Both the position numbers and the translations under genes were made by a program. Below the pieces are notes generated by a model. That model saw only the letters and a list, made by a program, of their open reading frames with translations, ran no database searches and was not told the origin of the DNA. Shown here piece after piece: positions 16,200-54,345 of a stretch of DNA of 64,000 nucleotides; position 1 is the stretch's first letter; every line of letters starts with the position of its first letter. The stretch is from contig JBEBFS010000002.1 in the NCBI GenBank assembly GCA_040081855.1, positions 80,497-144,496 on the forward strand. Reading direction: 5' to 3'. This DNA is from Bryobacteraceae bacterium. Its GTDB lineage: Bacteria; Acidobacteriota; Terriglobia; Bryobacterales; Bryobacteraceae.

Positions 16200-17426
16200 A
16201 TGAAGATGCAGGGACTCGAAACAGGGGCGAAACACAGAGCGATGCGCAACATACCGGATTCCGAAGTCTTGATCGTGGGTGGCGGACCTGCCGGGCTCTC
16301 GGCTGCAGCGGCCATCGCCCGCCGCGGCCACGAGGCCCTTGTGCTGGAACAGAATCACGAGATTGGATCGCCCATTCGCACCAGCGGCGGCAGTTTTATC
16401 GATGAACTCGTGGCCCTCGACATTCCCCCGCACCTTTATCACCCGGTCTCCCGCGTGCGCTTTCTTTCGCCAAACAACGAAGCGCGATTCAATTACGATC
16501 AGCCCAAGCTGTGCGTGATGGACGTCCGTGGCGTATTCCAGCATCTGGCTATGCGGGCCGTGGACGCAGGAGCCCGCATCCGTACAAACACTCGCGTTGC
16601 CGGTCCCATCATGGAAGACAATGCCGTGAAGGGTGTTCGCATTGGAGACGAATCCATTCGCAGCAGCGTGGTCATCGACGCCACCGGATATCGGGCGTCG
16701 ATTCTCAGACAAGCCGGCCTCGATCCGGGCATCCAGCGTTTCGGCGTGGGAGCCGAATACGATTTCTACGCCCCCTATTGCGACGAATCCGAAGTGTTGC
16801 TTTTCGGTGGAAGCGAACTGGCTCCGGCGGGTTACGCATGGGTGTTCCCTTGGGGACGCAAACGTGTCCGCGTGGGTGTCGGCATCATTCATCCCGATTC
16901 GAAAGCGAAGCCGGAGGAGTACCTCGATTATCTTGTCGATAACCTCGGCCGCTTCGGCGTCAACATGAAAGGCGCGCAGCCCATGGAACATCACTTTGGG
17001 TTAATTCCGTCCGAGTGCTTCGCGGCACGGTACGCTGGCGATGGAATTGTCGGCGCTGGCGATGCAGCCGGGCACGCTTCGTCACTGGTGGGAGAAGGAA
17101 TTCGCTGGGCAATTCATGCGGGAAGGATGGCCGGCGACGTGGTTTCGAGCGCACTGGAGCGCAACGATGTCTCGCGTGAGGCGCTTTCGGAGTTCGAAAA
17201 AAAGTGGGAAAAGCTTTACGGTCGTGATCTGCGCGTGGCACATAAACTCAACCAGCGCATGGCTCGCTGGGACGACCGCAAATGGGACGAACGAATGGAA
17301 ATCGTGAAGCTTTTGACGCCTCATCAGTTCATCGAAGCGCTGAAAACGAACCTGACCGGTGGGTGGCTGCTGCGTTTTCTGGCAACGCATCCAAAGACCT
17401 TGGCCGAAGCGGCCGGAATACTGTAA
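16200..17426 (+). CDS. geranylgeranyl reductase-family FAD-dependent oxidoreductase
   Basis: Dinucleotide fold VLIVGGGPAGLSAAAAIARRG, GDAAGHASSLVGEGIRWAIHAG motif, about 400 aa. Alternative start at ATG 16242. Confidence 0.8.
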   Translation: MKMQGLETGAKHRAMRNIPDSEVLIVGGGPAGLSAAAAIARRGHEALVLEQNHEIGSPIRTSGGSFIDELVALDIPPHLYHPVSRVRFLSPNNEARFNYDQPKLCVMDVRGVFQHLAMRAVDAGARIRTNTRVAGPIMEDNAVKGVRIGDESIRSSVVIDATGYRASILRQAGLDPGIQRFGVGAEYDFYAPYCDESEVLLFGGSELAPAGYAWVFPWGRKRVRVGVGIIHPDSKAKPEEYLDYLVDNLGRFGVNMKGAQPMEHHFGLIPSECFAARYAGDGIVGAGDAAGHASSLVGEGIRWAIHAGRMAGDVVSSALERNDVSREALSEFEKKWEKLYGRDLRVAHKLNQRMARWDDRKWDERMEIVKLLTPHQFIEALKTNLTGGWLLRFLATHPKTLAEAAGIL

Positions 17427-21909: not shown

Positions 21910-22496
21910 GTCTTTAGTTTACCGCGAATTGAGCCTCCAAAGCATTTCTTAGATCGTCCGCGTTGGGCGTCCGATAAGCATCTCGTGACCGGACTTGGCC
22001 AGAGGGCGTTGCAACTTTTGGAAGCCGCGGAGGCCGCCTCCGACCGTGGCCTGCCCTGCTCGGACACCACCGTTCTGATTGACCACAACGGATCCCTCCA
22101 TTTAGCCATGGGCTCCGACTGGCCATTGGACTCCCTTCGGGTGCACCGTGGTGCAGAGGCTGCGTTCCGAGTTACTTCCGCAGAAGGGCGGATACGGGTC
22201 GATGGCTGCGATGGCCGCCATACCCTGCGAATGGAAGGAATCAGCCCCCAGACCGCCGTTCGTGCGCTTCTCACTGCAGGCTGCCCCCGATTTTAGTCGC
22301 CCGATTGGGCCTCCCTCGCTGCTCTGGCATTTTGGCGAGAAAGACACAAAACACTGGAAGATCTTCTAGTGTCAAATTCGGTAAACACTCCTCCTCCGGA
22401 GTCCGCCAAATGGCCGGCAGATGCGTGCAATTACGGGGCGGAACTACGTGTTCTCCGAAGTCCGGCTCGTTCATCAACCTGTTATACTTAGACCTT

Positions 22497-23489
22497 ATGA
22501 GCACCCCTCTGCAGAGTTCCCCGGGTGGAAGTGCGAAAAAAATCCTATTACTGCGTCCCAGAGGCTTTTGCGCGGGCGTGGTCCGGGCAATCGACGTGGT
22601 GAAAATCGCCCTCGATTTGTATGGCGCTCCCATCTACGTCCGCAAGGAAATCGTGCATAACAAACACGTTGTGGAGGAGTTGCGGGCGGCCGGTGCGATC
22701 TTCGTCGAGGAACTGAGTGAAGTGCCCGTTGGCGGTCGCGTGATCTTCAGTGCGCACGGGGTTTCCCCGGCGGTCCGGGCAGAAGCCAAACAGCGAAGTT
22801 TAAAAGTGATCGACGCAACCTGCCCCCTGGTCACCAAGGTGCATTTGGAGTCGCGGCGTTTTGCTCAACAAGGCTACTCCATCGTTTTGATCGGGCATAA
22901 GGATCATGATGAAGTGATTGGAACTTTGGGTGAAGCGCCGGACGTCACAGTACTCGTTTCGGTGCCTGAGGACGTCGATTCACTCGAACTCCGAGATCCG
23001 GAAAAAGTTTGCTACATCACGCAGACTACGTTGAGCCTGGATGAAACCAAGGACATCGTAGAAAAGCTGCAGGCCCGTTACCCGAAGATTCACAGCCCGG
23101 CTGCGCAGGACATCTGCTACGCCACGGAAAATCGCCAACTTGCTGTCAAGGCCGTCGCGCCGATGTGCGATCTCCTACTGGTCGTCGGTTCGCAGAACAG
23201 TTCCAATTCGCGCCGTCTGGTCGAAGTTTGTGAGAAGGCCGGCGTCCCGGCCCACCTCATCGACGATTGCAGCGAGGTCAACTCCGAGTGGCTCTCGAAA
23301 GCGGATACCGTGGCCATCACGGCCGGTGCTTCGGCTCCGGAAAACCTGGTGGAAGAATTGATTGATTCGCTGAAGTCGAAGGGCTACGGCGAGTTAGAAG
23401 AAGTGGAAATCAAGGAAGAGGACGTACGGTTCCACCTGCCGGCGGAACTGAATCGCACCGTACAGTTGCAACCTGTTGCGCGCGTATGA
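22497..23489 (+). CDS. ispH: 4-hydroxy-3-methylbut-2-enyl diphosphate reductase
   Basis: RPRGFCAGVVRAIDVV, FSAHGVSP, ATCPLVTKVH, VVGSQNSSNSRRL. ATG 22497 chosen inside the ORF that opens at 22305. Confidence 0.9.
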   Translation: MSTPLQSSPGGSAKKILLLRPRGFCAGVVRAIDVVKIALDLYGAPIYVRKEIVHNKHVVEELRAAGAIFVEELSEVPVGGRVIFSAHGVSPAVRAEAKQRSLKVIDATCPLVTKVHLESRRFAQQGYSIVLIGHKDHDEVIGTLGEAPDVTVLVSVPEDVDSLELRDPEKVCYITQTTLSLDETKDIVEKLQARYPKIHSPAAQDICYATENRQLAVKAVAPMCDLLLVVGSQNSSNSRRLVEVCEKAGVPAHLIDDCSEVNSEWLSKADTVAITAGASAPENLVEELIDSLKSKGYGELEEVEIKEEDVRFHLPAELNRTVQLQPVARV

Positions 23490-25411
23490 GTCCTAGTTTG
23501 CAAGTGAGCGATACCCAACTTTCCGCCTGCGCGCAGGCCGTGCGCAAAGCCGTACATTTTCTACTCGAAAAACAGCATAACGACGGATTTTGGTGGGCGG
23601 ATCTCACTGCCGATACCACGCTTGAATCTGACTACATTCTCCTGGAGCTGTGGCGCCATCCTCCCGTGAACGGCGTGTGGAATCCGCCGTCGCGTCCGCG
23701 CATTGAGCGCGCCGTGCGGTCGATTCTCGCCCGTCAGCTCCCCGATGGCGGCTTTAACATCTACGAAAAAGGTCCGTCGGAAATTAGCGCCAGCGTGAAG
23801 GCCTACACGGCACTGAAGCTGTCCGGCTTGACGCTCGAAGATGAACGCATGAAGCGCCTCTACGACCGCATCATCGCGCTCGGCGGATTGCAGGCGGCCA
23901 ACAGTTACGTCAAGGTGAACCTCAGCCTGTTCGGTTTGTATCCGCGCGAGTACACGCCGTCGATTCCACCCGAAGGCATGCTGCTTGGGCGCCTGATTTA
24001 CGAAATGTCTTCCTGGACGCGCGCCATCGTGATTCCGCTTTCGATTGTGCACGCGATGAATCCCATGCGTCCGGTGCCTGCTGGCTTCACCCTGGAAGAA
24101 CTTATCATCCCCGGCGTTTCGCTGGAGTTCCCCAACAACGAAGGTTTCTTCAGCTGGCGCAATTTCTTCCTGATGGCCGATAAGTTCCTGAAGTTCTGGG
24201 AAAAACATGGCTCCAAGGCGCTTCGCCTCCAAGCCATCCGCCGCGCCGAGCGCTGGATGCTGGAGCGCACGCGCTACACAGACGGCGTGGCGGCGATTTA
24301 TCCGCCCATGATGTACGTCATCATGGCGCTGGATCTTTTGGGCTACCCCAAGGATCACCCGGACAGGCAGGAAGCGGATCAACAGTTCTTTAACCTGCTG
24401 GTCGAGCGCGATAACGAATTCTTCTTCCAGCCCTGTTTCTCCGTTGTGTGGGACACCGGCATCGCCGGCTATGCGCTGGCGGAGTCCGGCGTAGCTCCCG
24501 ATCATGCGCTTGCCCGAGCCGCCGACTGGCTGGTGACCAAGGAAGTCCGCCGCAAAGGCGATTGGAGCGTGAAGCGCCCCAATGTTGAGCCTTCCGGCTG
24601 GTACTTCGAGTTCGCGAACGAATACTACCCCGATATCGACGACACCGCGCAGGTGCTGCTGGCCTTGGCTCGCGCGCAAGGTTCCGACACCACCAAGCAG
24701 AGCGCTTGTATGCAGCGCGCTGTAAACTGGCTGCTCGCGATGCAATCGAAAGACGGCGGCTGGGCGGCGTTCGACGTCGATAACAAGTGGGATTTCCTCA
24801 GTTCCGTTCCCTTCGCCGATCACAACGCGATGCTGGACCCAACCTGCCCGGACATTACCGGCCGCGTGCTCGAAGGTCTCTGCGCGTGCGGCGTGCGTTC
24901 CGATCATTCGGCCATCCGCCGCGGTGTCGAGTTCCTCAAAAAGACCCAGGAGCAGGACGGCAGCTGGTACGGCCGCTGGGGCGTCGATTACGTTTACGGC
25001 ACGTTCCTCGCTCTGCGTGGCTTAGAAGCCGCCGGTGAAAGCAATCGCGAAGTCTACGTCCTCCGCGGCGGTGAATGGCTGCGTTCCGTGCAGAACGGTG
25101 ACGGCGGGTGGGGCGAAAGCTGCGCCAGCTACGATCAGCACACGTTTGTTCCCGCGCAAAGCACGCCTTCGCAAACGGCTTGGGCAATTCTCGGCCTGCT
25201 GGCCAGTGGCGATACCACCAGCGATAGCATTCACAACGGCATTCAATATCTGATCGACACCCAACGCCCCGGAGGCGGCTGGGATGAAGAGCTTTCCACC
25301 GGGACCGGCTTCCCGGGCGTGTTCTACCTGAAGTATCACTATTACCGCCATTCGTTTCCCATACTGGCCATGTCCACGTATCTGAAGGCGAAGGCAGCGA
25401 ACGGAGTTTAA
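23486..25411 (+). CDS. shc: squalene-hopene cyclase
   Basis: Catalytic DxDD motif (YYPDIDDTAQ). Multiple QW repeats (QLPDGGF, QSKDGGW, QEQDGSWYGRWG, QNGDGGWGE, QRPGGGW). The ATG overlaps the ispH TGA (ATGA). Confidence 0.95.
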   Translation: MSPSLQVSDTQLSACAQAVRKAVHFLLEKQHNDGFWWADLTADTTLESDYILLELWRHPPVNGVWNPPSRPRIERAVRSILARQLPDGGFNIYEKGPSEISASVKAYTALKLSGLTLEDERMKRLYDRIIALGGLQAANSYVKVNLSLFGLYPREYTPSIPPEGMLLGRLIYEMSSWTRAIVIPLSIVHAMNPMRPVPAGFTLEELIIPGVSLEFPNNEGFFSWRNFFLMADKFLKFWEKHGSKALRLQAIRRAERWMLERTRYTDGVAAIYPPMMYVIMALDLLGYPKDHPDRQEADQQFFNLLVERDNEFFFQPCFSVVWDTGIAGYALAESGVAPDHALARAADWLVTKEVRRKGDWSVKRPNVEPSGWYFEFANEYYPDIDDTAQVLLALARAQGSDTTKQSACMQRAVNWLLAMQSKDGGWAAFDVDNKWDFLSSVPFADHNAMLDPTCPDITGRVLEGLCACGVRSDHSAIRRGVEFLKKTQEQDGSWYGRWGVDYVYGTFLALRGLEAAGESNREVYVLRGGEWLRSVQNGDGGWGESCASYDQHTFVPAQSTPSQTAWAILGLLASGDTTSDSIHNGIQYLIDTQRPGGGWDEELSTGTGFPGVFYLKYHYYRHSFPILAMSTYLKAKAANGV

Positions 25412-25415: not shown

Positions 25416-26528
25416 ATGAGAGTTCCACTTTCCCAAGTCGCCGATATGGCGACCTACATCGCCAAGAACAAGATGCGTCCCCGTCCGGAGTGGCAGGAAA
25501 ACCGCGCCACCGACGATACTGCAAATCCGTTCAAGATCGTGCATACCCAGGTTCCCTCGATTAAAAGCGAGCGGAAGCCGCATCCGATGATCCACAAGCG
25601 TTTCCCGCTGGTGATGATGCTAGAGCCGCTGCACGCCTGTAACCTCACCTGCACCGGCTGCGGCCGTATCCGCGAGTACGAATCCACTATTCGCGACCGC
25701 CTGTCCCTCGAACAGTGCCTCAAGGCCGTCGATGAATGCGGCGCGCCCATGGTTTCCATTTGCGGCGGCGAACCGCTGCTGTTGCCCGATATCGCCGAAA
25801 TCGTTGCGGGCATTCTCCAGCGCGGCCGTTACATTCAGCTCTGCACCAACGGCATGTTCCTGCGCAAACGTCTGAAGGACTTCACGCCGCACCCAGGTCT
25901 GGTCTTCAACGTCCACCTGGACGGCATGGAAAAGACCCACGATATGTGCGTGGAGCGCGAAGGCGTCTTCAAGGAAGCGATTGAAGGCATCAAGGCCGCC
26001 AAAGCCGCGGGCTTCAAGGTGTTCTCAAACACCACGGTTTATAGAGAGACCAACATGCAGGAAATTCGCGATTTGTACGAATTCCTGATGCAGCTAGGCG
26101 TCGACGGCCACGCAATTTCGCCGGCCTACGGCTACTCCGCCGTGGATGACCGCGAAATCTTCATGACGCGCGAAGACATCCACGAAAAGTTTAAGGACAT
26201 CGAGACCCTTTCGAAGAAGTTCCCGCTGGTCTCTTCGCCCGTCTACATGGAATTTCTGAAGGGCGATCGCGACCTGCCGTGCACCGCGTGGGGCATGCCC
26301 ACCTATAACGTCCGCGGCTGGAAAGGCCCGTGCTATCTCATCACGGATAAGCACTACGATACGTTTGAGGATCTGATGACCAAGACGCCGTGGGAGAGCT
26401 ACGGCACGGGTAACGATCCGCGCTGCGAAAACTGCATGGTGCACTGCGGCTATGAACCCTCGGCCGCCTACGGCGTGAATTCGAAGTTGAGCGATCCGTT
26501 CAAGTCTTTAAGCTGGCTGCTGCGGTAA
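25416..26528 (+). CDS. hpnH: adenosylhopane synthase (radical SAM)
   Basis: Radical SAM CNLTCTGC. HpnH-like length and C-terminal Cys-rich region (CENCMVHCGYE). Lies 4 nt after shc. Confidence 0.9.
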   Translation: MRVPLSQVADMATYIAKNKMRPRPEWQENRATDDTANPFKIVHTQVPSIKSERKPHPMIHKRFPLVMMLEPLHACNLTCTGCGRIREYESTIRDRLSLEQCLKAVDECGAPMVSICGGEPLLLPDIAEIVAGILQRGRYIQLCTNGMFLRKRLKDFTPHPGLVFNVHLDGMEKTHDMCVEREGVFKEAIEGIKAAKAAGFKVFSNTTVYRETNMQEIRDLYEFLMQLGVDGHAISPAYGYSAVDDREIFMTREDIHEKFKDIETLSKKFPLVSSPVYMEFLKGDRDLPCTAWGMPTYNVRGWKGPCYLITDKHYDTFEDLMTKTPWESYGTGNDPRCENCMVHCGYEPSAAYGVNSKLSDPFKSLSWLLR

Positions 26529-26568: not shown

Positions 26569-27591
26569 TTGAAACCGATTCTCGTTACAGGAGCGACTGG
26601 CTTTCTCGGCTGGCATGTGGCCCGCAAGCTGATCGATGCCGGTCGCTCTGTTCGGGCTCTGGTTCGCAATCCGGCGGCAAATGGACCGGCGTTACGGGAG
26701 TTGCCGGGCGTGGACGTCCGAACCGGTGATCTCCGCGACGCCGATTCCCTGGCCCGCGCCGTGGAAGGCTGCGGCGTGGTGTATCATGTGGCGGCGGATT
26801 ACCGGCTGTGGGCACCGAAGCCGGAAGAAATGTACCGCTCGAATGTGGGCGGAACGAAGAACATGCTGGAGGCCGCGCGCAGGGCAGGAATCGAGCGCGT
26901 CGTCTACACCAGTACGGTCGGCTGTATCGGGTTTCCCCAAGGGGGCATCGGTACCGAAGAGACCCCGGTGAGTCTCGACGATATGAGCGGGCCCTACAAG
27001 CGGTCGAAGTTTCAGGCCGAAGTAGTTGCGCAAGAGTTTGCGAAGGAAGGTTTCCCGGTGGTGATCGTCAACCCGACGGCCCCCGTTGGAGATCACGATT
27101 TTAAGCCGACGCCTACTGGGAAGATGATTGTCGACTTCCTGCGAGGCAATATGCCGGCCTTTCTGGACACGGGATTAAACGTGGCCTACGCCGGTGACGT
27201 CGCCGAGGGTCACTTGGCGGCATGTGAGCGTGGGGTCCCCGGAGAGCGGTATATTCTGGGCGGAGAGAATCTGACGTTGCAGCAAATCTTCGATTCCCTG
27301 GCCATCGTCACCGGATTGAAAGCGCCCCGGATGCGGATTCCGTACGCGGTCGCCTATGCTGCGGGCATAGCGTCCACCGGGTGGGCCGCCGTGACAGGAA
27401 AGGAACCGCGGGCGCCCATTGATGCGGTCCGCATGGCGAAGAAGAAGATGTGGGCGAGTTCCGACAAGGCCGCCCGCGAATTAGGATATTCCGCGCATCC
27501 GGCGATCGAGGCCTTGCGCCACGCCGCCGAATGGTTCGCGGCGAACGGCTATTGTGAAAACCTGGCTTCTGGTCGCCGCCGAACGGCGTGA
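26569..27591 (+). CDS. hpnA: hopanoid-associated NAD-dependent sugar epimerase/dehydratase-family protein
   Basis: ILVTGATGFLGWHV Rossmann motif and a YKRSK catalytic dyad. Position in the hpn operon. TTG start with GGAG upstream. Confidence 0.8.
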   Translation: MKPILVTGATGFLGWHVARKLIDAGRSVRALVRNPAANGPALRELPGVDVRTGDLRDADSLARAVEGCGVVYHVAADYRLWAPKPEEMYRSNVGGTKNMLEAARRAGIERVVYTSTVGCIGFPQGGIGTEETPVSLDDMSGPYKRSKFQAEVVAQEFAKEGFPVVIVNPTAPVGDHDFKPTPTGKMIVDFLRGNMPAFLDTGLNVAYAGDVAEGHLAACERGVPGERYILGGENLTLQQIFDSLAIVTGLKAPRMRIPYAVAYAAGIASTGWAAVTGKEPRAPIDAVRMAKKKMWASSDKAARELGYSAHPAIEALRHAAEWFAANGYCENLASGRRRTA

Positions 27592-28231
27592 GTTCGATGG
27601 TTTGTTGGCCCGCTTCCAGGCGGCCGCGAGCGCAGTGAAACCGCTCGACTGGCCAGCCGTGCGGTTTGCGGCGGAAGTGCAGTGGAAGGGCGACCGTTGG
27701 TGGTTGATTGCAAACGGTCCCGGTCCGGAGTTGGTGAACCGGGCTTTGGCCATCGGTAGAGATGTGGACGGTGTCGTGAGCACGGGTTTTTGCGGCGGGC
27801 TCGATCCGGCGTTACGGATCGGCGAGATCGTGGTTTCCGGTGATCTGGAATTTTCAACCGATCACCCCGTCACGCACGGGCGAATTTACACGCATCACAT
27901 GGTGGCTTCCACCAAAGAGGCCAAACGGAAGCTGCGAGTGCAAACCGGTGCGACCGCCGTGGAGATGGAAGCCGACGCAGTAAAGCAGAAGGCGAGCGAA
28001 TGGGGCATCCCGTTCGGCTGCGTAAAAGTGGTTTCGGATACGGCGCTCGAGGACATGCCGCTGGATTTTAACCGGTATCGTTCGCCGTCGGGAGATTTTT
28101 CGCGAACACGGATCGCTCTGGCAGCCATGGCGCGGCCGTTTACGGTGATGCCGCGGCTGATGGAACTGGACCGCAACTGCCGCACGGCATCGGAGGCGTT
28201 AGGAGACTTTTTTGCAAACTGCAAACTCTAA
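27554..28231 (+). CDS. hpnG: hopanoid-associated phosphorylase / adenosylhopane nucleosidase
   Basis: PNP/MTA-nucleosidase-like sequence (GFCGGLDP, ATAVEMEADAV, VKVVSD). GTG start overlaps hpnA by 38 nt. Confidence 0.8.
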   Translation: MKTWLLVAAERREFDGLLARFQAAASAVKPLDWPAVRFAAEVQWKGDRWWLIANGPGPELVNRALAIGRDVDGVVSTGFCGGLDPALRIGEIVVSGDLEFSTDHPVTHGRIYTHHMVASTKEAKRKLRVQTGATAVEMEADAVKQKASEWGIPFGCVKVVSDTALEDMPLDFNRYRSPSGDFSRTRIALAAMARPFTVMPRLMELDRNCRTASEALGDFFANCKL

Positions 28232-29345
28232 GCAAACCGCGTCACGTCCGGAATCTTCGCCGGGCAGTTTGACGCCGCCGGTTGTGCGCGGGCCGATGAA
28301 GGCCGCCGTCTACAAAGGCAATAGCGTAGTGGACGTCGATTCCATCGCCGTTCCCGAAATTGGACGCGGCGAAGTTTTGATCCAGGTGGAATCCTGCGGC
28401 ATTTGCCACACGGACCTGAAGAAAATTGAATACAACCTGCTGCCCGGTCCGCGCATCTATGGTCATGAAACCGCTGGAGTGATTGCAGCCATCGGCGAGG
28501 GCGTCACCAAGTATCAGCCGGGTGACCGGGTGGTGGTGTTTCATCACATCCCCTGCGGAGAGTGCTTTTATTGCAGCAAGAAGTTATATGCCCAATGCCC
28601 CGTGTACAAGAAGGTGGGTGTGACGGCCGGCTACGAACCGGCGGGCGGCGGTTTCTCGCAGTACGTGCGAGTGATGGATTGGATTGTCGAAAGCGGTATT
28701 GAAAAGATTCCCGCCGGAGTTTCGTTCGATCAGGCGTGTTTCGTTGAGCCAGTGAACACCTGTGTCAAAGGTGTACATCAGGTGGACCCACATCCGGGTG
28801 ACGTGGTCGCCATCCTCGGCCAGGGACCCATCGGCCTGATCTTCACGATGATCGTCTCGCAGATTGGTTCGCGCATCGTGGCTACCGATACGATGGAATT
28901 CCGCCGGAAGCTCGCGCTGAAGTTCGGCGCGCACGAGGCGTTCGATCCGCGCGAAGCAACCTTCTCCCGCACGGTGAAGCAGATGACCGACGGGCGCGGC
29001 GCGGATATCGTCATCGTCGCTGCATCCGCGAAAGGTATTGTCGAACAGGCTGTGGAATGCTCGCGGCCGGGGGCAAAGATTTTGTTGTTCGCGCAAACTT
29101 CGCATCAGGAGCGGATCGAGGTTTCGGGCGCGGATATTTGCATGGGCGAAAGGATCTTGTGCGGTTCCTACAGCGCGTCTGTGGACGTGCAAAAAGAGTC
29201 CGCGGATCTGGTTTTTTCGGGCAAATTGCCCGTTGAGCAACTTGTGACGCACCGGTTCCCATTAACGGGCGTTCATGAGGGTATCGAGCGGGCGTTGCAT
29301 CCTGGGCCAGAATCGTTGAAGATCGTATTACAGCCCCAGAGGTGA
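28212..29345 (+). CDS. Zn-dependent medium-chain dehydrogenase/reductase (MDR, alcohol/polyol dehydrogenase family) 1
   Basis: GICHTDL, GHETAGVI, structural-Zn CGECFYCSKKLYAQC, NAD fold ILGQGPIGL. A TTG at 28212 has AGGAG 6 nt upstream; ATG at 28296 (MKAAVYKG) is an alternative start. Confidence 0.85.
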   Translation: MQTANSKQTASRPESSPGSLTPPVVRGPMKAAVYKGNSVVDVDSIAVPEIGRGEVLIQVESCGICHTDLKKIEYNLLPGPRIYGHETAGVIAAIGEGVTKYQPGDRVVVFHHIPCGECFYCSKKLYAQCPVYKKVGVTAGYEPAGGGFSQYVRVMDWIVESGIEKIPAGVSFDQACFVEPVNTCVKGVHQVDPHPGDVVAILGQGPIGLIFTMIVSQIGSRIVATDTMEFRRKLALKFGAHEAFDPREATFSRTVKQMTDGRGADIVIVAASAKGIVEQAVECSRPGAKILLFAQTSHQERIEVSGADICMGERILCGSYSASVDVQKESADLVFSGKLPVEQLVTHRFPLTGVHEGIERALHPGPESLKIVLQPQR

Positions 29346-30394
29346 GAAGAGTGACCGATCAGATGACGGCGGCCGTCCTGTACGGCAAAGAGCGCCTACA
29401 AATCGAGGTCGTCGATGTGCCCAAAATTGGCCCCGGCGATGTACTCGTGCGCGTACGCGCGGCGCTTACATGCGGTACGGATGTGAAAGTTTTCCGGCGT
29501 GGCTACCATGCGCGGATGATTGTGCCCCCGGCGTTGTTCGGCCATGAATTGGCGGGCGATATCGTCGCGGTGGGTAGCGACGTGAAACATTTCAAGGTGG
29601 GCCAGCGCGTGATGGCGGCCAACTCCGCCCCTTGCGGCACCTGCTACTACTGCAAGCACGACCAGGAAAACCTGTGCGACGATCTGTTGTTCAACAACGG
29701 CGCTTACGCGGAGTACATTCGCATTCCTGAGCGCATCGTTGAAAAGAATCTCCACTTGCTTGAGGACCACGTCGGCTATCAGGACGCCGCACTCGCCGAA
29801 CCGCTCGCTTGCGTTTTGAGCGGACTCGAAGATACGAATCTTCGCCAGGGCGACACCATCGCCATCATCGGCCTGGGTCCCATTGGAATGATGTTTGTCC
29901 GTCTGGCAAAAGCACTCTACGGCGCGCGCGTCATCGCCATCGGCCGCCGCCAACCGCAACTGGATCGCGCCAGGAACATGGGCGCCGATGAAACGATTTT
30001 GAACGACGGTTCCTCCGACGTCATCGCCGAAGTGAAATCGCTTACCGAAGGCCGTGGAGCGGACGTTGTTATCGAAGCCGTCGGCTTGCCGGAACTCTGG
30101 CAATTGGCCGTGCACCTGCTGCGCCGCGGCGGTGTGGTCAACTTCTTCGGCGGCTGTGCGACGGGAACGCAGGTTACGCTCGATACCCAACTGCTGCACT
30201 ATTCCGAAATAACGTGCCTCGCCAGCTTCCACCATACGCCGGCGCTGATGCGCAAGGCGCTCGACGCCATCAGCCGTGGCTACGTCACCGCGAAGGATTT
30301 CGTCAATGGCGTGGAGCCGCTCTCGAACCTGCTTGAAGTGATGCAGCACCTCATGAGCCATAACGGCCACCTGAAGACGGCGATCATCCCTTAG
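29342..30394 (+). CDS. Zn-dependent medium-chain dehydrogenase/reductase (sorbitol/threonine-dehydrogenase-like) 2
   Basis: LTCGTDVKV, GHELAGDI, CGTCYYCKHDQENLC, IIGLGPIGM. The GTG overlaps the stop of the previous MDR gene (GTGA). ATG at 29363 is an alternative start. Confidence 0.85.
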   Translation: MRRVTDQMTAAVLYGKERLQIEVVDVPKIGPGDVLVRVRAALTCGTDVKVFRRGYHARMIVPPALFGHELAGDIVAVGSDVKHFKVGQRVMAANSAPCGTCYYCKHDQENLCDDLLFNNGAYAEYIRIPERIVEKNLHLLEDHVGYQDAALAEPLACVLSGLEDTNLRQGDTIAIIGLGPIGMMFVRLAKALYGARVIAIGRRQPQLDRARNMGADETILNDGSSDVIAEVKSLTEGRGADVVIEAVGLPELWQLAVHLLRRGGVVNFFGGCATGTQVTLDTQLLHYSEITCLASFHHTPALMRKALDAISRGYVTAKDFVNGVEPLSNLLEVMQHLMSHNGHLKTAIIP

Positions 30395-30440
30395 GCTTGT
30401 GCACCTTCCTCCGGTAGGCTTCATCAAAAGCGCGTCCGAC

Positions 30441-31313
30441 ATGGACCGCGCCTGGACGCTGCCGGCGTCGCTCGCCTACACGCACTGGCTGGCCACGCAC
30501 CACTACGAAAACTTTCATGTGGTGAGTTTCCTGCTCCCGAAGCGCCTGCACCAGGATTTCTATAACGTTTACTCCTTTTGCCGCTGGGCCGACGACCTAG
30601 GGGACGAAATCGGTGATACTGCCGAAAGCCTGCGGCTGCTCTCCTGGTGGCGCACGGAACTCAACGCCATGTATGCGGGCGAAGCCAAGCACCCCGTTTT
30701 CGTGGCGCTGATGGGGACCGCAAAGAAGCATGCCCTGCCCCAGATTCTCTTCGATGATCTCATCAAGGCATTCGAACAGGACCAGACCGTTACCCGCTAT
30801 CGCAATTTTGACGAGTTGATCGAATACTGCCGCTATTCGGCCAATCCCGTCGGCCGCCTGGTGCTGGGCCTCTGCGGATATCAAGATGCCGAGCTTTGTG
30901 GCATGTCGGACGCCACATGCACCGCGCTGCAGCTTGCCAACTTCTGGCAGGACGTCATCGTCGATCTCGAAAAAGATCGCGTCTACCTGCCGCTTGATTT
31001 GCTCGACAAGTACGGCTATCCAGTGGAAGATCTCTTCGCCCGCAAGTTCGATGCGCATTTCGCCTGTGTGATGAAAGACGCCGTCGAAGTGGCGCGTGAA
31101 TTGTTCCTGAAGGGCATGCCGCTTGCCGACCGCGTGGACCGGCGCCTGGCGATCGATCTCGAACTCTTCAGCCGCGGCGGCCTCAAAATACTGTCCAAGA
31201 TTGAAGATCAAAAATACAACGTGCTGAGCGCCCGCCCGGCGATCAGCAAGACCGAACGTGTGGCGCTCTTGCTTGGCGCGCTAACCCGCCGGGCCTTTTC
31301 TCGCGCCGCATGA
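30441..31313 (+). CDS. hpnC: hydroxysqualene synthase (squalene/phytoene synthase family)
   Basis: HYENFHVVSFLLP, Asp-rich WADDLGDE and a second motif NFWQDVIVD. The ORF opens at GTG 30399, 4 nt after MDR2. Confidence 0.85.
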   Translation: MDRAWTLPASLAYTHWLATHHYENFHVVSFLLPKRLHQDFYNVYSFCRWADDLGDEIGDTAESLRLLSWWRTELNAMYAGEAKHPVFVALMGTAKKHALPQILFDDLIKAFEQDQTVTRYRNFDELIEYCRYSANPVGRLVLGLCGYQDAELCGMSDATCTALQLANFWQDVIVDLEKDRVYLPLDLLDKYGYPVEDLFARKFDAHFACVMKDAVEVARELFLKGMPLADRVDRRLAIDLELFSRGGLKILSKIEDQKYNVLSARPAISKTERVALLLGALTRRAFSRAA

Positions 31314-32188
31314 GCCATTCCAATCCTCCTATTACCGTTGAGACGTCCTATGACTGGAGCCAGCATGTTGCCCGGTTACAGGCGAAGAATTTTTATTATT
31401 CGTTTCTTTTGTTATCAAAAGAGCAGCGCCGTGCCATGTGCGCCGTTTACGCGTTCATGCGCTATTGCGACGATCTGAGCGACGAAATCAGCGACGATCC
31501 GGACGAAGATCAAAGCCCCGCCGGACGCGCCGCGGCGATCGAGCGGTGGCGCGAGGATCTGACGCAGGCGCTCCGCGGTGAAAACGTTCCCGAACACTTC
31601 GTGTGGCCCGGCTTCGCCGATGCCGTCGCGCGCTTCAAGATTCCGCACGAGTACTTCTTCGATATGATCGACGGCGTCCGCTCCGATCTGGGCCCTCGCC
31701 ACATTGAAACCTTCGACGAGCTTTACGATTACTGCTATCACGTGGCGAGTGTTGTCGGCCTCACGATCACTCACATTTTCGGCTTTGAATCGCCGGAAGC
31801 GTTGGCGTTGGCCGAAAAGTGCGGGGTTGCGTTCCAGTTGACGAACATCCTTCGCGACGTCAAAGAAGACGCCGAAAAAGGCCGTGTCTATTTACCCGCC
31901 GAAGATCTTCGGCGTTTCGGTGTCTCGCCCGATACGTTCGAGCCGCGCGATAAGTTCGTGCAGTTGATGAAGTTCGAAGCAGCCCGCGCGCGCGAGTACT
32001 ATGAGCAAGCGGCGCCGCTGATCGACATGGTGCATCCCAGCAGCCGGGCGTCACTCCGCGCCCTGATCGGCATCTACTCGCGACTGCTCGATCGCATTGA
32101 AGGCGCGAACTTCGACGTCTTCGCCGATCGCATCCGCGTCCCCGCTTGGGAAAAGATGTGGATTCTCGTGCGAAGCCTCGTGGGATAA
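31310..32188 (+). CDS. hpnD: presqualene diphosphate synthase (squalene/phytoene synthase family)
   Basis: FYYSFLLL, YAFMRYCDDLSDE, LTNILRDVKEDAEKGRVYLP. The ATG overlaps the hpnC TGA (ATGA). Confidence 0.85.
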   Translation: MSHSNPPITVETSYDWSQHVARLQAKNFYYSFLLLSKEQRRAMCAVYAFMRYCDDLSDEISDDPDEDQSPAGRAAAIERWREDLTQALRGENVPEHFVWPGFADAVARFKIPHEYFFDMIDGVRSDLGPRHIETFDELYDYCYHVASVVGLTITHIFGFESPEALALAEKCGVAFQLTNILRDVKEDAEKGRVYLPAEDLRRFGVSPDTFEPRDKFVQLMKFEAARAREYYEQAAPLIDMVHPSSRASLRALIGIYSRLLDRIEGANFDVFADRIRVPAWEKMWILVRSLVG

Positions 32189-32289
32189 CTCCCTCGTTTC
32201 GCAATGGCATCGGACCACGCTCGCGAGCGCGGGGATGGCCAGAGATTATTGCCGCTGCACCAAGCGCGGGAGCATGTTACGGTAACAGC

Positions 32290-32661
32290 ATGAATTGGAG
32301 TGCAATCGCGGCAGTGTTCCTCGGGGTTGCTGTGTGCATCGGCGCTTTCGGCGCGCACGCTTTGCAAGGTAGACTCGACGAATATTCGCGCGGCGTCTAC
32401 GAAACCGGCGTCCTCTATCATTTCTTCCACGCGCTCGGATTATTGATCGTTTCCGTACTTCCCCGCACCGGCGCACTCACCGAAGCAAGAGCCAACACGG
32501 TCTGCTGGCTCCTCGCTGCGGGAATTTTGCTGTTCAGCGGAAGCCTTTACACCCTGGCCATCAGCGGCGTGCGAACCCTGGGAGCCATCACACCCATCGG
32601 CGGCGTGGCGTTCATCGCCGCGTGGGCGGTTTTGGCCTACGGCCTGGTGCGCGGATCGTAA
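32290..32661 (+). CDS. DUF423 (YgdD-like) small membrane protein
   Basis: MNWSAIAAVFLGVAVCIGAFGAHAL...YHFFHALGLL...LFSGSLY. Four TM helices with the DUF423 signature. Confidence 0.8.
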   Translation: MNWSAIAAVFLGVAVCIGAFGAHALQGRLDEYSRGVYETGVLYHFFHALGLLIVSVLPRTGALTEARANTVCWLLAAGILLFSGSLYTLAISGVRTLGAITPIGGVAFIAAWAVLAYGLVRGS

Positions 32662-37881: not shown

Positions 37882-38199
37882 ATGGAACTTCGTCCTATAC
37901 CCACCCCGGCGCAAAGAATGCGCCCATTGATGGAACGCCGTTCGGAACCGCGCACCACAGTTTCAGAAGAAATTAGTGTTCACGTACCGGGCTGGGCGGG
38001 GCAACCGAACCCCATGCCGGCGCGCGTGGTGAGTATATCCGGGCATGGCATGTGCCTGCACACGCACCACCCCGTTCAGTGCGGCGTGCATATCGAAATA
38101 CGAACCAAACAGGGCGTGATCACAGGAGAAGTTTGCCGTTGCAAGCACGAGGGCAAAGGATACTCGCTGGGCGTCCGTCTGCCACGCGCCTCGGCCTAA
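37882..38199 (+). CDS. PilZ-like domain protein
   Basis: RRSEPR (RxxxR-like) followed by VVSISGHG (D/NxSxxG-like) and a beta-barrel-like remainder. Several in-frame ATG starts. Confidence 0.55.
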   Translation: MELRPIPTPAQRMRPLMERRSEPRTTVSEEISVHVPGWAGQPNPMPARVVSISGHGMCLHTHHPVQCGVHIEIRTKQGVITGEVCRCKHEGKGYSLGVRLPRASA

Positions 38200-38360
38200 G
38201 CCGTTTCCGCCCGGAAACGAAATGTGGCACACGCGTCCTCCTTGAAACCCGCCTCGACGACTGCCTTTCATCCGTTCAACCTCCATTTTCTAGACCAAAG
38301 TGTGATTCGTTCCTGCGCAAAGATTGCATTTCCACCCATAGCCTCGTTCATAATAAGAAC

Positions 38361-39239
38361 GTGGAAAATCGGAGAGTTGCCATTTTCGGAAGCGGTGGGC
38401 AGTTGGGGCGGGAACTAGTCGCGGAGTTCATCAAGCGCGGGTACGAGGTGACGGGTTATGAACGCACGGACATCGACATAACCGACGCCGCGCAGATCGA
38501 CCAATGCCTGACCACGCTGGACCCGGCCATCGTCATCAACTCCGCCGCCTATAACCAGGTGGACGTCGCCGAAAAGGAACCGCAGGCGGCGTATTCCGTC
38601 AATGGACTCGCCGTGCGCAACCTGGCTCTCACCTGCCGCCAGATTGACGCGCGCCTGATTCATTTCTCGACCGATTACGTTTTCGATGGCCTCGCGGGCC
38701 GCGCCTACACGGAACAGGACACACCGCGTCCCCTCGGTGCCTATGCCGTGTCGAAGCTCGCGGGCGAGTTGTATGCGCGGGCGTATCTCGATAACGCTCT
38801 GGTCATCCGCACGTCGGGGGTGTATGGACCCGCGGGACACAAGACGCCACGCGGCAACTTTGTGGAACTAATGCTCCGTCTGGCGGCGAGCAACCAGCCG
38901 ATTCGGGTTGTGGAAGATCACGTGGCCTCGCCGACGTTTGCTCCCGCGCTTGCTTCTCGAACTGCCGATCTTGCCGAGCGTGAAGCCAAAGGGGTGTTTC
39001 ACATCGCCGGAGGCACGCCGATCTCGTGGTTCGATTGGGCGGTGAAAATTTTCAATGCCGCCAAGGTGAATCCTCCGCTCAAACCAACGAATGAACGCGA
39101 ATTCCGCACGGCGGCGCGCAGGCCGAAATACTCAGCGCTCTCGAACGCGAAGATGGAATCGCTGGGGCTCGCGCCTATGCCTACACTTGATGAAGCCATC
39201 GGGTTGTACCTGCTGGCGCGCGGCCGGCACACAGATTAG
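38361..39239 (+). CDS. rfbD: dTDP-4-dehydrorhamnose reductase
   Basis: VAIFGSGGQLGREL, STDYVFDG, YAVSKLAGE catalytic YxxxK. GTG start at 38361 inside the ORF that opens at 38052. Confidence 0.85.
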   Translation: MENRRVAIFGSGGQLGRELVAEFIKRGYEVTGYERTDIDITDAAQIDQCLTTLDPAIVINSAAYNQVDVAEKEPQAAYSVNGLAVRNLALTCRQIDARLIHFSTDYVFDGLAGRAYTEQDTPRPLGAYAVSKLAGELYARAYLDNALVIRTSGVYGPAGHKTPRGNFVELMLRLAASNQPIRVVEDHVASPTFAPALASRTADLAEREAKGVFHIAGGTPISWFDWAVKIFNAAKVNPPLKPTNEREFRTAARRPKYSALSNAKMESLGLAPMPTLDEAIGLYLLARGRHTD

Positions 39240-39745: not shown

Positions 39746-40642
39746 TTGAACGCTTTCCTGAAACGTGTACGGTTGACGCTCGAAATGATCAAGTTCGAGC
39801 ATTCCGTATTTGCCCTTCCTTTCGCCCTCACCGGAGCCTTGCTCGCATGGCGCGACGCTGGATTCCTCCGCCAGGGATTATGGGCAAAGCTCGGCTGGAT
39901 CGTCGTCTGCATGGTCTCCGCGCGGAGCGTGGCCATGGCGTTCAACCGTGTTCTCGACGCCGACGTAGACGCGCTGAACCCGCGCACGAAAATGCGCCAC
40001 CTGCCAAGCGGACAGCTCTCGCGCGGCTTCGCCTGGGGCTTCATCCTTGTCTGGAGCGTCGTCTTTTCCTACGCGTCCAGCCGCTTGAACGCGCTGTGTT
40101 TCCTGCTGGCTCCGATAGCGCTGGCGGTGCTGATGTTTTACTCGTATACGAAGCGCTTCACTTCGCTATCGCACATCGTGCTCGGCTTCGCGCTTGGCAT
40201 CGCGCCGGCGGGCGCGTGGATCGCCATGCGTGGCGCGCTCGATCCGCGGATTCTGTGGCTCACCGCCGCCGTTACGCTGTGGACCGCGGGTTTCGACATC
40301 ATCTATTCCTGTCAAGATTACGAGTTCGATAGCAGCGCGCCCCTGTTCAGCATCCCGAAGCTTCTGGGCATCCCCAAAGCACTGTGGGTCTCTCGCTTGC
40401 TCCACGTCGGCATGTTACTGTGCCTACTGATGTTAGGTCTTTCCTTCCATCTGGGATTCTTAGCCTGGGTGGGTGTTGCCGCCGTGATGGGCCTGCTTTT
40501 GTGGGAGCACCGCATCGTGTGGCCGAACGATCTTTCCCGCGTGGATGCGGCCTTCTTCACCATGAACGGCTACGTCAGCGTGATATTCTTTCTATTTTGG
40601 GCCGGAGATATTCTCCTGGCCCATTCAAACCTGCTCCGGTAG
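39746..40642 (+). CDS. UbiA-family aromatic prenyltransferase (futalosine-pathway MqnP-like)
   Basis: FEHSVFALPFALTGALLA, Asp-rich NRVLDADVDALNPRT, second motif YSCQDYEFD. Adjacent to an Mqn radical SAM gene. TTG start. Confidence 0.85.
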   Translation: MNAFLKRVRLTLEMIKFEHSVFALPFALTGALLAWRDAGFLRQGLWAKLGWIVVCMVSARSVAMAFNRVLDADVDALNPRTKMRHLPSGQLSRGFAWGFILVWSVVFSYASSRLNALCFLLAPIALAVLMFYSYTKRFTSLSHIVLGFALGIAPAGAWIAMRGALDPRILWLTAAVTLWTAGFDIIYSCQDYEFDSSAPLFSIPKLLGIPKALWVSRLLHVGMLLCLLMLGLSFHLGFLAWVGVAAVMGLLLWEHRIVWPNDLSRVDAAFFTMNGYVSVIFFLFWAGDILLAHSNLLR

Positions 40643-40660
40643 CGGTAGTGAGTCCAAGCA

Positions 40661-46673: not shown

Positions 46674-46677
46674 GGAT

Positions 46678-47883: not shown

Positions 47884-47887
47884 CGTC

Positions 47888-49315: not shown

Positions 49316-49318
49316 AAT

Positions 49319-51593: not shown

Positions 51594-51600
51594 CGCACCG

Positions 51601-53729: not shown

Positions 53730-54345
53730 GGGGCTCCTCCACGCGCACACGCAAAACACGGGCCGGCGCACCCGCCGCGACACAGTCGGCCGGAATATCT
53801 CGCGTCACAACCGAGCCGGCCCCGATGATGCTGCGCTCGCCAATCGTGACCCCCTTCAAGATGATCGCGTGTGCGCCCACAAACACATCCCGGCAGATAC
53901 GCACCGGCCCGCACTGGATCTGGCTCTCATCGTGAACACGCCGGGCCATGTGATCCAACGGATGGAGGTCGGAATCGTAGACGCAAACACCGGCGCCCAA
54001 ATTCACGTAATCCTCAATGACAATTGAGATCTGGCTGCGCAATACAACGCCCGACATTCCCACGTGGTTGCCCACATCAATGCGCGCGCCTGCCGATGTC
54101 GTCGTGATCGCACAGGGTTGATACACTCCCGCCGGATTCTCGGCAAGCGTATTAGAAAGCTTCACGTGCTCGCCAAAGCGTATAGTGGATTCCGGATGTC
54201 TGCGGCACAACGGCAACGACATCACTTGCAGATCCCGACCGTACTCGATTCCAAGGATCGTCAAATACAAGCGCGCGGCCTGCCCTAGAACGGCTCCCCA
54301 CACTGCACGCACAAACCTCACCAACTCAATCAACGCTCTCCTCAC
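53716..54345 (-). CDS. left-handed beta-helix (hexapeptide-repeat) acyl/acetyltransferase
   Basis: Hexapeptide repeats (IDVGNHVGMSGVVL, IEDYVNLGAGVCV, ICRDVFVGAHAIILKGVTIGERSIIGAGSVV). The GTG at 54345 overlaps the flippase TGA (GTGA). Confidence 0.8.
   Translation of the reverse strand: MRRALIELVRFVRAVWGAVLGQAARLYLTILGIEYGRDLQVMSLPLCRRHPESTIRFGEHVKLSNTLAENPAGVYQPCAITTTSAGARIDVGNHVGMSGVVLRSQISIVIEDYVNLGAGVCVYDSDLHPLDHMARRVHDESQIQCGPVRICRDVFVGAHAIILKGVTIGERSIIGAGSVVTRDIPADCVAAGAPARVLRVRVEEPHATA

What the first reader, a model, noticed from the sequence alone, without database searches (positions are those of the whole stretch)
28212..30394. Two tandem Zn-dependent polyol-type dehydrogenases embedded between hpnG and hpnC: candidates for an unassigned hopanoid step
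Seen: both ORFs carry full MDR signatures. MDR1 has GICHTDL, GHETAG, CGECFYCSKKLYAQC and GQGPIG. MDR2 has CGTDVKV, GHELAG, CGTCYYCKHDQENLC and GLGPIG, which is sorbitol/threonine-dehydrogenase-like. They are locked into the operon by overlapping or 4-nt junctions. Established: HpnH makes adenosylhopane and HpnG removes adenine to give ribosylhopane. To my knowledge, the NAD(P)H-dependent reduction of ring-opened ribosylhopane to bacteriohopanetetrol has no genetically assigned enzyme. Inference: aldose-to-polyol reduction is what this MDR subfamily does, so one or both genes are plausible candidates for that missing reductase. Alternatively they could replace the absent HpnE.
Basis: partly seen in the sequence, partly recalled or inferred. 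Interest (0 to 1): 0.78.

Follow-up and report, generated by a model that had tools for sequence, protein, structure and literature searches.

The report
Paired zinc dehydrogenases in hopanoid operon
Two adjacent zinc-dependent dehydrogenase genes, one built for NAD and one for NADP, sit in the middle of an acidobacterial squalene-hopanoid operon; the pairing is real and strongly conserved, was already noted in 2017 as genes of unknown function, and cannot yet be tied to the missing ribosylhopane reduction step.

Summary
Window 28212-30394 encodes two complete Zn-dependent medium-chain dehydrogenases (MDR1, MDR2). They lie in a + strand operon: ispH-shc-hpnH-hpnA-hpnG-MDR1-MDR2-hpnC-hpnD, from a Bryobacteraceae (Acidobacteriota) MAG.

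They are old paralogues (27% identity). They do not reach the cut-off of any curated family. They differ at the cofactor site: MDR1 keeps the Asp that marks NAD enzymes, and MDR2 has Gly-Arg-Arg, which marks NADP enzymes.

Synteny is very strong. In 80 species-level genomes, MDR1-MDR2 was adjacent in 73/73 loci, hpnC/D followed in 69/69, and hpnG preceded in 77/77.

In more distant lineages the pair mostly sits upstream of hpnC-hpnD-hpnE, sometimes with no hopanoid side-chain gene within 10 kb (Armatimonadota, L169). It also occurs in Vicinamibacteria, a class reported to lack hopanoid genes. Some loci carry the pair with no isoprenoid genes nearby.

The pair co-occurs with hpnE in the same operons, so it does not replace HpnE.

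The genes match ug1 and ug2 of Sinninghe Damsté et al. 2017, whose function is "not established".

A role as the ribosylhopane-to-BHT reductase remains possible, MDR2 being the better candidate, but nothing supports it specifically. My best reading is an NAD/NADPH redox pair coupled to the squalene-hopanoid pathway, with the substrate unresolved.

The parts
22305..23489 (+). ispH/lytB (HMBPP reductase), first gene of the operon. The true start is probably near residue 76 of this ORF.
   Evidence: NF002189 463 bits and PF02401, with the match starting at residue 76-80. Conserved at the head of the cluster in related loci.
23486..25411 (+). shc/hpnF, squalene-hopene cyclase
   Evidence: TIGR01507 642 bits
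25416..26528 (+). hpnH, radical-SAM adenosylhopane synthase
   Evidence: TIGR03470 433 bits
26569..27591 (+). hpnA, hopanoid-associated SDR ('sugar epimerase') of unknown function
   Evidence: TIGR03466 457 bits
27554..28231 (+). hpnG-like nucleosidase/phosphorylase, poorly conserved (median 44% identity across 80 species)
   Evidence: PF01048; TIGR03468 117 bits, below the cut-off of 187
28212..29345 (+). MDR1 (= ug1): Zn-dependent TDH/polyol-dehydrogenase-like enzyme of NAD type. An alternative conserved start is ATG 28296.
   Evidence: PF08240 + PF00107. Catalytic Cys/His/Glu/Glu and four structural Cys are invariant, as is Asp in 'IVATD'. AGGAG lies 7 nt before TTG 28212.
29351..30394 (+). 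MDR2 (= ug2): Zn-dependent TDH/polyol-dehydrogenase-like enzyme of NADP type. The ORF opens at 29342; alternative starts are GTG 29351 and ATG 29363.
   Evidence: PF08240 + PF00107. Zn ligands are invariant. 'AIGRR' replaces the NAD Asp and aligns with 'TARS' of the NADP(H) ketose reductase 1e3j. GAGGTG precedes GTG 29351.
30399..31313 (+). hpnC (hydroxysqualene synthase)
   Evidence: TIGR03464 339 bits. Directly follows MDR2 in 69/69 genome loci.
31310..32188 (+). hpnD (presqualene diphosphate synthase)
   Evidence: TIGR03465 260 bits, best hit
32146..32661 (+). DUF423 membrane protein at the operon's end. Conserved only in the closest relatives.
   Evidence: PF04241; present in 4 of 80 loci

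Best explanation
MDR1 and MDR2 form an ancient two-gene redox module that is functionally coupled to HpnCD(E)-type squalene synthesis. In Terriglobia it is embedded in the complete hopanoid operon.

Shown:
- Both are catalytically intact Zn-MDRs of the threonine/polyol-dehydrogenase type.
- MDR1 carries the NAD determinant (an acidic residue after strand beta-B). MDR2 carries the NADP determinant (Gly/Ala followed by Arg/Lys-Arg).
- The two genes stay adjacent and co-oriented, with gaps small enough for translational coupling.

Inferred:
- MDR1 oxidises a carbinol with NAD+, and MDR2 reduces a carbonyl with NADPH, on the same or successive intermediates.
- The net effect would be a stereoinversion, a keto hand-off, or a reduce-or-oxidise branch point.
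- The substrate is a hydroxylated intermediate of the squalene-to-bacteriohopanepolyol route. Candidates are the ribose-derived side chain (ribosylhopane or BHT) in Terriglobia, or a hydroxysqualene-type allylic alcohol of the HpnCDE branch.

The substrate itself is not established. The module is not a substitute for HpnE. It is not specifically tied to hpnG.
For: Intact enzymes: Pfam domains and Zn ligands are invariant in 22-sequence alignments and across phylum-level relatives.

Cofactor split, conserved in every lineage examined:
- MDR1 Asp aligns with the Glu of NAD-dependent Pyrococcus TDH.
- MDR2 Gly-Arg-Arg replaces the Asp of 4cpd and aligns with Ala-Arg-Ser of the NADP(H) ketose reductase 1e3j.

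Synteny:
- 80 species-representative genomes: MDR1-MDR2 73/73, hpnC/D downstream 69/69, hpnG upstream 77/77.
- Divergent metagenome loci: MDR1 upstream of MDR2 in 43/50, hpnC/D downstream in 47/59.
- The block MDR1-MDR2-hpnC-hpnD-hpnE recurs in Armatimonadota (L081/L082) and in L169 without hpnA, hpnG or shc within 10 kb.

Conservation: median identity is 72-73%. That equals ispH and hpnH (76%) and exceeds shc (69%), hpnA (68%), hpnD (61%) and hpnG (44%).

Phylogeny: hpn-linked MDR2 sequences form one large clade in a neighbour-joining tree.

Literature: ug1 and ug2 are reported in SD1, SD2 and SD3 acidobacterial hopanoid clusters (PMC5462960).
Against: - No biochemical or genetic data exist for either protein.
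- Related pairs occur with no isoprenoid gene within 10 kb. L089 lies next to a heparinase II/III-like gene and an enolase-superfamily dehydratase. L170 lies next to a CBM9 protein.
- A clade of solo MDR2-like genes has unrelated neighbours.
- The nearest characterised families act on small polar substrates (Thr, polyols, inosose).
- The region after the catalytic Cys of MDR2 is rich in basic residues (KVFRRGYHARM). That suits an anionic soluble substrate as well as an interfacial one.
- Sampling is dominated by soil Terriglobia.
- The AlphaFold models were too poor to inspect the pocket.
Confidence: 0.42

Rival explanations
1. One of the two enzymes is the missing NAD(P)H-dependent reductase that converts ring-opened ribosylhopane into bacteriohopanetetrol. 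MDR2, the NADP type, is the better candidate.
For: - The step is still unassigned (PMC12583986).
- In 77/77 close genomes the pair directly follows hpnG.
- MDR2 has NADP determinants. As I recall the cited Bodlenner et al. 2015 study, its cell-free reduction used NADPH; I did not read that paper here.
Against: - The pair also sits with hpnCDE alone in Armatimonadota and L169. It occurs in Vicinamibacteria, a class reported to have squalene genes but no shc or BHP genes and no hopanoids (PMC5462960).
- C. thermophilum lacks ug2 yet makes tetrafunctionalised BHPs.
- A single reduction does not explain a conserved NAD-type partner.
- By homology the enzymes resemble secondary-alcohol/ketone enzymes more than aldehyde reductases.
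- From my own knowledge, not tested here: the hpn clusters of model BHT producers carry no such MDRs.
- hpnA is a competing candidate in the same operon.
Confidence: 0.15
2. The pair works on a soluble polyol, sugar derivative, hydroxy-amino acid or amino alcohol. Its place in squalene/hopanoid operons reflects co-regulation, supply of a head group or precursor, or history, not catalysis on a terpenoid.
For: - The best family matches are IolM, TDH, sorbitol dehydrogenase and ketose reductase.
- Related pairs sit next to carbohydrate-type genes (heparinase II/III + MR_MLE dehydratase in L089; CBM9 in L170).
- In Armatimonadota an L-threonine aldolase/GntG-family gene lies directly upstream.
- A relative is fused to a nucleotidyltransferase (P0262).
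- MDR2 has a cluster of basic residues at the cleft.
- Solo MDR2-like genes occur in unrelated contexts.
Against: - The pair lies in the middle of the operon, between hpnG and hpnC, with tight junctions. This holds across all sampled Terriglobia and recurs with hpnCDE in other lineages.
- The hpn-linked members form their own clade.
- No transporter or kinase for a soluble substrate is conserved nearby.
Confidence: 0.28
3. The MDRs replace the HpnE that is missing from this operon and reduce hydroxysqualene to squalene.
For: No hpnE lies in the operon or among the ORFs tested in the 64-kb window. None follows hpnD in the sampled Bryobacterales-type loci.
Against: - The pair and an amine-oxidase-type hpnE occur together in the same operon in L081, L087, L088, L169 and more than 20 metagenome loci.
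- The 2017 paper describes ug2-hpnC-hpnD-hpnE as the standard SD1 cluster, and its table lists hpnE in 'Ca. Solibacter usitatus' (SD3).
- Zn-ADH chemistry does not perform a reductive dehydroxylation (established knowledge).
Confidence: 0.02

Closest known systems
ug1 and ug2 of acidobacterial hopanoid gene clusters (Sinninghe Damsté et al. 2017, Front Microbiol 8:968, PMC5462960)
   Same: Position matches: ug1 follows hpnA-hpnG, and ug2 precedes hpnC-hpnD-hpnE. Size matches (about 370 and about 350 aa). Annotation matches (Zn-dependent / Zn-binding alcohol dehydrogenase). The taxon is Acidobacteria SD1-SD3.
   Different: That paper left the function 'not established' and treated the two genes as parts of two separate clusters. 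It did not note the NAD/NADP split, the near-obligate adjacency, or the occurrence outside hopanoid producers. Identity with ug1/ug2 is inferred from position, size and annotation, not from a sequence comparison.
L-threonine 3-dehydrogenase (TDH; e.g. Pyrococcus horikoshii 2dfv)
   Same: The fold is the same, with catalytic and structural zinc sites. MDR1 shares the acidic NAD determinant. TDH is among the best hits for both proteins in solved structures: top for MDR1, third for MDR2.
   Different: The scores on TIGR00692, 153 and 160 bits, are far below the cut-off of 458. MDR1 has a family-specific loop, K-x-x-G-x-TAG[FY]EPxGGGF. No kbl partner is present.
Sorbitol dehydrogenase / NADP(H)-dependent ketose reductase (1pl6, 1e3j)
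   Same: These are polyol-type MDRs. MDR2 shares the small-residue-plus-Arg NADP motif of the ketose reductase. JGI names the homologues 'L-iditol 2-dehydrogenase'.
   Different: The matches are only distant (E about 1e-30 to 1e-37 by phmmer). The segment after the catalytic Cys differs: KVFRRGYHARM against HYYEHGRIADF.
scyllo-Inosose 3-dehydrogenase IolM (NF041097)
   Same: It is the top NCBIfam hit for both proteins, over nearly the full length.
   Different: 161 and 167 bits against a cut-off of 450, so neither is a member. No inositol genes lie nearby.
NAD+/NADPH dehydrogenase pairs that invert a carbinol, such as IolG/IolW for myo- to scyllo-inositol (analogy from my own knowledge, a different protein family)
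   Same: The logic matches: an NAD-type oxidising enzyme beside an NADPH-type reducing enzyme.
   Different: The fold differs (Gfo/Idh/MocA). No substrate link has been shown. This is a lead for how the pair may work, not a membership claim.

Membership tests
Zn-dependent medium-chain dehydrogenase/reductase (MDR) superfamily | GroES-like catalytic domain plus Rossmann domain (PF08240 + PF00107) | tested here: met
   Both proteins score above the gathering cut-offs.
Zn-dependent medium-chain dehydrogenase/reductase (MDR) superfamily | Catalytic Zn ligands (Cys, His, Glu, plus the distal Glu) and four structural-Zn Cys | tested here: met
   Numbering counts from the conserved Met (ATG 28296 for MDR1, ATG 29363 for MDR2). 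MDR1: C37, H57, E58, E151 and C87/C90/C93/C101. MDR2: C37, H61, E62, E146 and C91/C94/C97/C105. All are invariant in alignments A1, A2 and A3.
Zn-dependent medium-chain dehydrogenase/reductase (MDR) superfamily | GxGxxG dinucleotide fold with a cofactor-discriminating residue after strand beta-B | tested here: met
   MDR1 has GQGPIG followed by IVATD (NAD type). MDR2 has GLGPIG followed by AIGRR (NADP type). Cofactor use itself was not measured.
L-threonine 3-dehydrogenase (TIGR00692 / NF003808) | Score at or above the curated equivalog cut-off | tested here: not met
   153 and 160 bits against 458; 152 and 157 bits against 380.
scyllo-Inosose 3-dehydrogenase IolM (NF041097) | Score at or above the curated equivalog cut-off | tested here: not met
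   161 and 167 bits against 450.
Sorbitol / L-iditol 2-dehydrogenase (the name JGI gives the homologues) | Close similarity to characterised sorbitol dehydrogenases and their polyol-binding residues | tested here: inconclusive
   Similarity to 1pl6 and 1e3j is only distant (E about 1e-30 to 1e-37), and the substrate-cleft segment differs. No curated sorbitol dehydrogenase model appeared among the listed hits.
HpnE hydroxysqualene dehydroxylase | FAD-dependent amine-oxidase fold (PF01593) | tested here: not met
   Neither MDR has the domain. Genuine PF01593 genes follow hpnD beside the pair in L081, L087, L088 and L169.
Acidobacterial hopanoid-cluster genes ug1/ug2 (PMC5462960) | Zn alcohol dehydrogenases of about 370 and about 350 aa, placed after hpnA-hpnG and before hpnC respectively | tested here: met
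   377 aa and 347-350 aa, in exactly those positions. No direct sequence comparison with the published loci was possible.
Ribosylhopane reductase (activity known, no gene or family defined) | NADPH-dependent reduction of ribosylhopane to BHT | not testable with these tools
   No reference sequence exists. Only the predicted NADP preference of MDR2 and its position after hpnG bear on it.

The most novel reading that the evidence does not exclude
The pair is the unassigned redox machinery at the ribosylhopane branch point in Terriglobia. MDR2 would be the long-sought NADPH-dependent enzyme that produces bacteriohopanetetrol. MDR1, the NAD+ partner, would either oxidise the same lactol to the lactone or acid form, or oxidise C-34 so that re-reduction by MDR2 sets or inverts the C-34 configuration. 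The second option would make soil Acidobacteria a genetic source of BHT stereoisomers, which are used as biomarkers.
Probability: 0.13. Interest if true: 0.75.

Novelty: new member of a known kind. Interest (0 to 1): 0.45.

Why it matters
Hopanoids are major bacterial membrane lipids and geological biomarkers. At least one side-chain step, ribosylhopane to BHT, and the origin of the BHT stereoisomers have no assigned genes.

The two dehydrogenases are as conserved as ispH and hpnH, and they sit in the core of the operon in one of the most abundant soil phyla. That makes them obvious targets for experiment.

This analysis adds three things. The two enzymes have opposite predicted cofactor preferences. 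They behave as one module. The module is usually found with hpnC-hpnD-hpnE and also occurs outside hopanoid producers. Together these points widen the hypotheses to be tested beyond the side chain and remove the HpnE-replacement idea.

If the enzymes prove to act on a soluble metabolite, the finding is an ordinary case of operon hitch-hiking.

Tried and rejected
- AlphaFold2 models of both proteins, built from the ortholog alignments, came out with low confidence (mean pLDDT 62 and 65, catalytic domains below 50). I therefore ran no fold search or pocket analysis.
- Two cluster-member look-ups gave almost no organism names. They named only the Armatimonadota hit.
- The promoter/terminator scan found no more sites than in shuffled sequence.
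- The search for hpnE in the window found only a geranylgeranyl-reductase-family flavoprotein at 16200-17426.
- I considered a link to the missing dxs of some Acidobacteria, with the pair acting as a bypass of the MEP (methylerythritol phosphate) pathway. I rejected it because ug2 is reported in all SD1/SD3 genomes, only some of which lack dxs, and is absent from C. thermophilum, which lacks dxs.
- I considered a threonine-related role, because of the threonine aldolase in L081 and tsaE-tsaB next to two solo MDR2-like genes. The context is not consistent across loci.
- Literature searches found no functional assignment beyond the 2017 paper.
Full report
**What is there**

The + strand of window 22.3-32.7 kb carries nine to ten tightly packed genes:
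- ispH (22305-23489)
- shc (23486-25411)
- hpnH (25416-26528)
- hpnA (26569-27591)
- an hpnG-like PNP/nucleosidase gene (27554-28231)
- MDR1 (28212-29345)
- MDR2 (29342/29351-30394)
- hpnC (30399-31313)
- hpnD (31310-32188)
- a DUF423 gene

Proteins identical to MDR1 and MDR2 are deposited from a 160,608-bp contig of a Bryobacteraceae MAG.

Both proteins have the two MDR Pfam domains.

Junctions are tight whichever start is used. TTG 28212 has an AGGAG 7 nt upstream and overlaps the hpnG stop. GTG 29351 is preceded by GAGGTG and lies 5 nt after the MDR1 stop. hpnC begins 4 nt after the MDR2 stop.

**What the two proteins are**

They share only 27% identity, so they are old paralogues and not a recent duplication.

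Neither reaches the cut-off of any curated NCBIfam model. The best hits are IolM (161 and 167 bits against 450) and TDH (153 and 160 against 458). The closest solved structures are distant matches (best E about 1e-34 to 1e-38): archaeal TDH, Thermus ADH 4cpd, 4ej6, galactitol-1-phosphate dehydrogenase and the whitefly NADP(H) ketose reductase.

The catalytic Zn ligands and the four structural cysteines are invariant in both families. This also holds in relatives at phylum-level distance.

- MDR1 always has Asp after strand beta-B ('IVATD'), aligned with the Glu of NAD-dependent TDH.
- MDR2 has Gly/Ala followed by Arg/Lys-Arg ('AIGRR'). This replaces the Asp of 4cpd and aligns with the Ala-Arg-Ser of the NADP(H)-dependent ketose reductase.

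The split is conserved in Terriglobia, Armatimonadota and Vicinamibacteria. By the established rule for Rossmann folds, MDR1 should use NAD(H) and MDR2 NADP(H). This is a prediction, not a measurement.

**Synteny in close relatives**

I scanned one genome per GTDB species with the MDR1 alignment. The 80 best were 66-95% identical, nearly all labelled Bryobacterales or other Terriglobia/Acidobacteriota MAGs.

Mapping the window's proteins onto them gave:
- MDR1 directly before MDR2 in 73/73 loci
- hpnC/D directly after in 69/69
- hpnG directly before MDR1 in 77/77

Median identities across these genomes are MDR1 72% and MDR2 73%. For comparison: ispH 76%, hpnH 76%, hpnC 70%, shc 69%, hpnA 68%, hpnD 61% and hpnG 44%.

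**Synteny further away**

A search of 50%-identity representatives found full-length relatives at 38-48% identity. It also found a nucleotidyltransferase fusion and forms with a hydrophobic C-terminal extension that looks like a membrane anchor. Walking out through an Armatimonadota homologue, plus a metagenome scan with an MDR2 alignment, gave about 90 more loci.

The common pattern in the divergent loci resembling the published SD1/SD2 acidobacterial clusters is ispH-shc-hpnA-(hpnG)-MDR1-MDR2-hpnC-hpnD-hpnE.

Loci that depart from that pattern:
- Armatimonadota (L081/L082): L-Thr-aldolase-like gene, MDR1, MDR2, a small ORF, hpnC, hpnD, hpnE.
- L169: MDR1, MDR2, a methyltransferase, hpnC, hpnD, hpnE.
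- L159: MDR2, hpnC, hpnD, hpnE.
- None of these three has hpnA, hpnG, hpnH or shc within 10 kb.
- A Vicinamibacteria MAG carries the pair divergent from a polyprenyl synthase, a lycopene-cyclase-domain protein and an HpnN-like transporter.
- L089 and L170 carry the pair with carbohydrate-type neighbours and no isoprenoid genes.
- A separate clade of solo MDR2-like genes has no consistent context.

**What the literature adds**

- The two genes correspond to ug1 and ug2 of Sinninghe Damsté et al. 2017: 'Zn-dependent alcohol dehydrogenase (ca. 370 AA)' after hpnA-hpnG, and 'Zn-binding alcohol dehydrogenase (ca. 350 AA)' before hpnC. Both are listed as 'not established'. ug2 is reported in all SD1 and SD3 genomes but not in C. 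thermophilum, which still makes tetrafunctionalised BHPs. The authors proposed hpnA for the ribosylhopane step.
- SD6 Acidobacteria (Vicinamibacteria) are reported to have squalene genes but no shc or BHP genes, and to make no hopanoids.
- Armatimonadetes are reported to combine HpnCDE with CrtN/P, the squalene route to C30 carotenoids.
- The enzyme for ribosylhopane to BHT was still called not established in 2025.
- I found no paper that assigns a function to these dehydrogenases.

**Interpretation**

The HpnE-replacement idea is refuted by co-occurrence in the same operons.

The ribosylhopane-reductase idea survives but is not specifically supported. In its favour:
- The pair sits directly after hpnG in Terriglobia.
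- MDR2 is predicted to use NADP.

Against it:
- The pair occurs with hpnCDE alone, and in lineages said to lack hopanoids.
- BHT-type products are made where ug2 is absent.
- The conserved NAD-type partner is unexplained by a single reduction.
- The family's chemistry is secondary alcohol to ketone, not aldose to polyol.

When the cluster is split, the literature indicates that ug1 stays with hpnA-hpnG in cultured SD3 strains. My loci show the pair staying with hpnCDE in other phyla. The safe inference is therefore coupling to the squalene-to-hopanoid pathway as a whole.

I commit to the following, at about 0.4. The pair is a two-enzyme NAD/NADPH redox module acting on a hydroxylated intermediate of that pathway. 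MDR1 oxidises and MDR2 reduces. The candidate substrates are the ribose-derived side chain or a hydroxysqualene-type alcohol.

A soluble polyol, sugar or amino-alcohol substrate with co-regulation is a serious rival (about 0.28). The specific reductase assignment stands at about 0.15.

**Novelty and interest**

The enzymes are new, uncharacterised members of a very well known superfamily. Their presence in acidobacterial hopanoid clusters is already published. What is new here is the cofactor dichotomy, the module behaviour, the cross-phylum link to hpnCDE, and the exclusion of the HpnE idea.

Interest is moderate. The genes are well-defined, testable candidates for open questions in hopanoid biosynthesis, but the evidence does not favour any one step.

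Noticed in passing
L083:3320-8842 and L084:2732-9022 (Vicinamibacteria MAG GCA_016934575.1): Divergent from the MDR pair lie three genes: a polyprenyl synthase with a long N-terminal extension, a 311-aa lycopene-cyclase-domain protein (PF18916), and an HpnN-like RND transporter fused to a C-terminal LolA domain. This may be a cluster for making and exporting a non-hopanoid cyclic terpenoid lipid, in a class reported to lack shc.
   Followed up: partly
P0262, P0303, P0370 (relatives of MDR1 from the representative search): P0262 fuses a nucleotidyltransferase domain to an MDR1-like dehydrogenase, which recalls enzyme pairs for CDP-alditol synthesis. P0303 and P0370 carry a C-terminal extension containing a hydrophobic stretch that looks like a membrane anchor (judged by eye, no prediction run).
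   Followed up: partly
L081:8946-9977 (Armatimonadota GCA_028871815.1): A low-specificity L-threonine aldolase / GntG-family PLP aldolase gene lies 24 nt upstream of the MDR pair, in the same operon as hpnC-hpnD-hpnE.
   Followed up: partly
L169:12134-12952: A SAM-dependent methyltransferase gene is inserted between the MDR2-like gene and hpnC-hpnD-hpnE.
   Followed up: no
L001-L080: hpnH was detected between shc and hpnA in only about half of the species-level loci (38 full-length matches). In contrast, hpnA-hpnG-MDR1-MDR2-hpnC-hpnD is invariant. hpnG is by far the least conserved gene of the operon (median 44% identity).
   Followed up: partly
window 39746-41785: A UbiA/MqnP-like prenyltransferase lies next to aminofutalosine synthase MqnE (futalosine route to menaquinone). 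rmlD lies at 38052-39239.
   Followed up: no
window 16200-17426: A geranylgeranyl-reductase-family flavoprotein (TIGR02032) lies about 5 kb upstream of the hopanoid operon. It is not HpnE.
   Followed up: no
window 46000-56000: A long run of minus-strand ORFs shows markedly negative GC skew and positive AT skew compared with the rest of the window.
   Followed up: no
L125:75-2265 and L167:4233-6439: Solo MDR2-like genes (about 52% identity to MDR2) directly follow tsaE-tsaB in two metagenome loci. Other solo copies have unrelated neighbours.
   Followed up: partly
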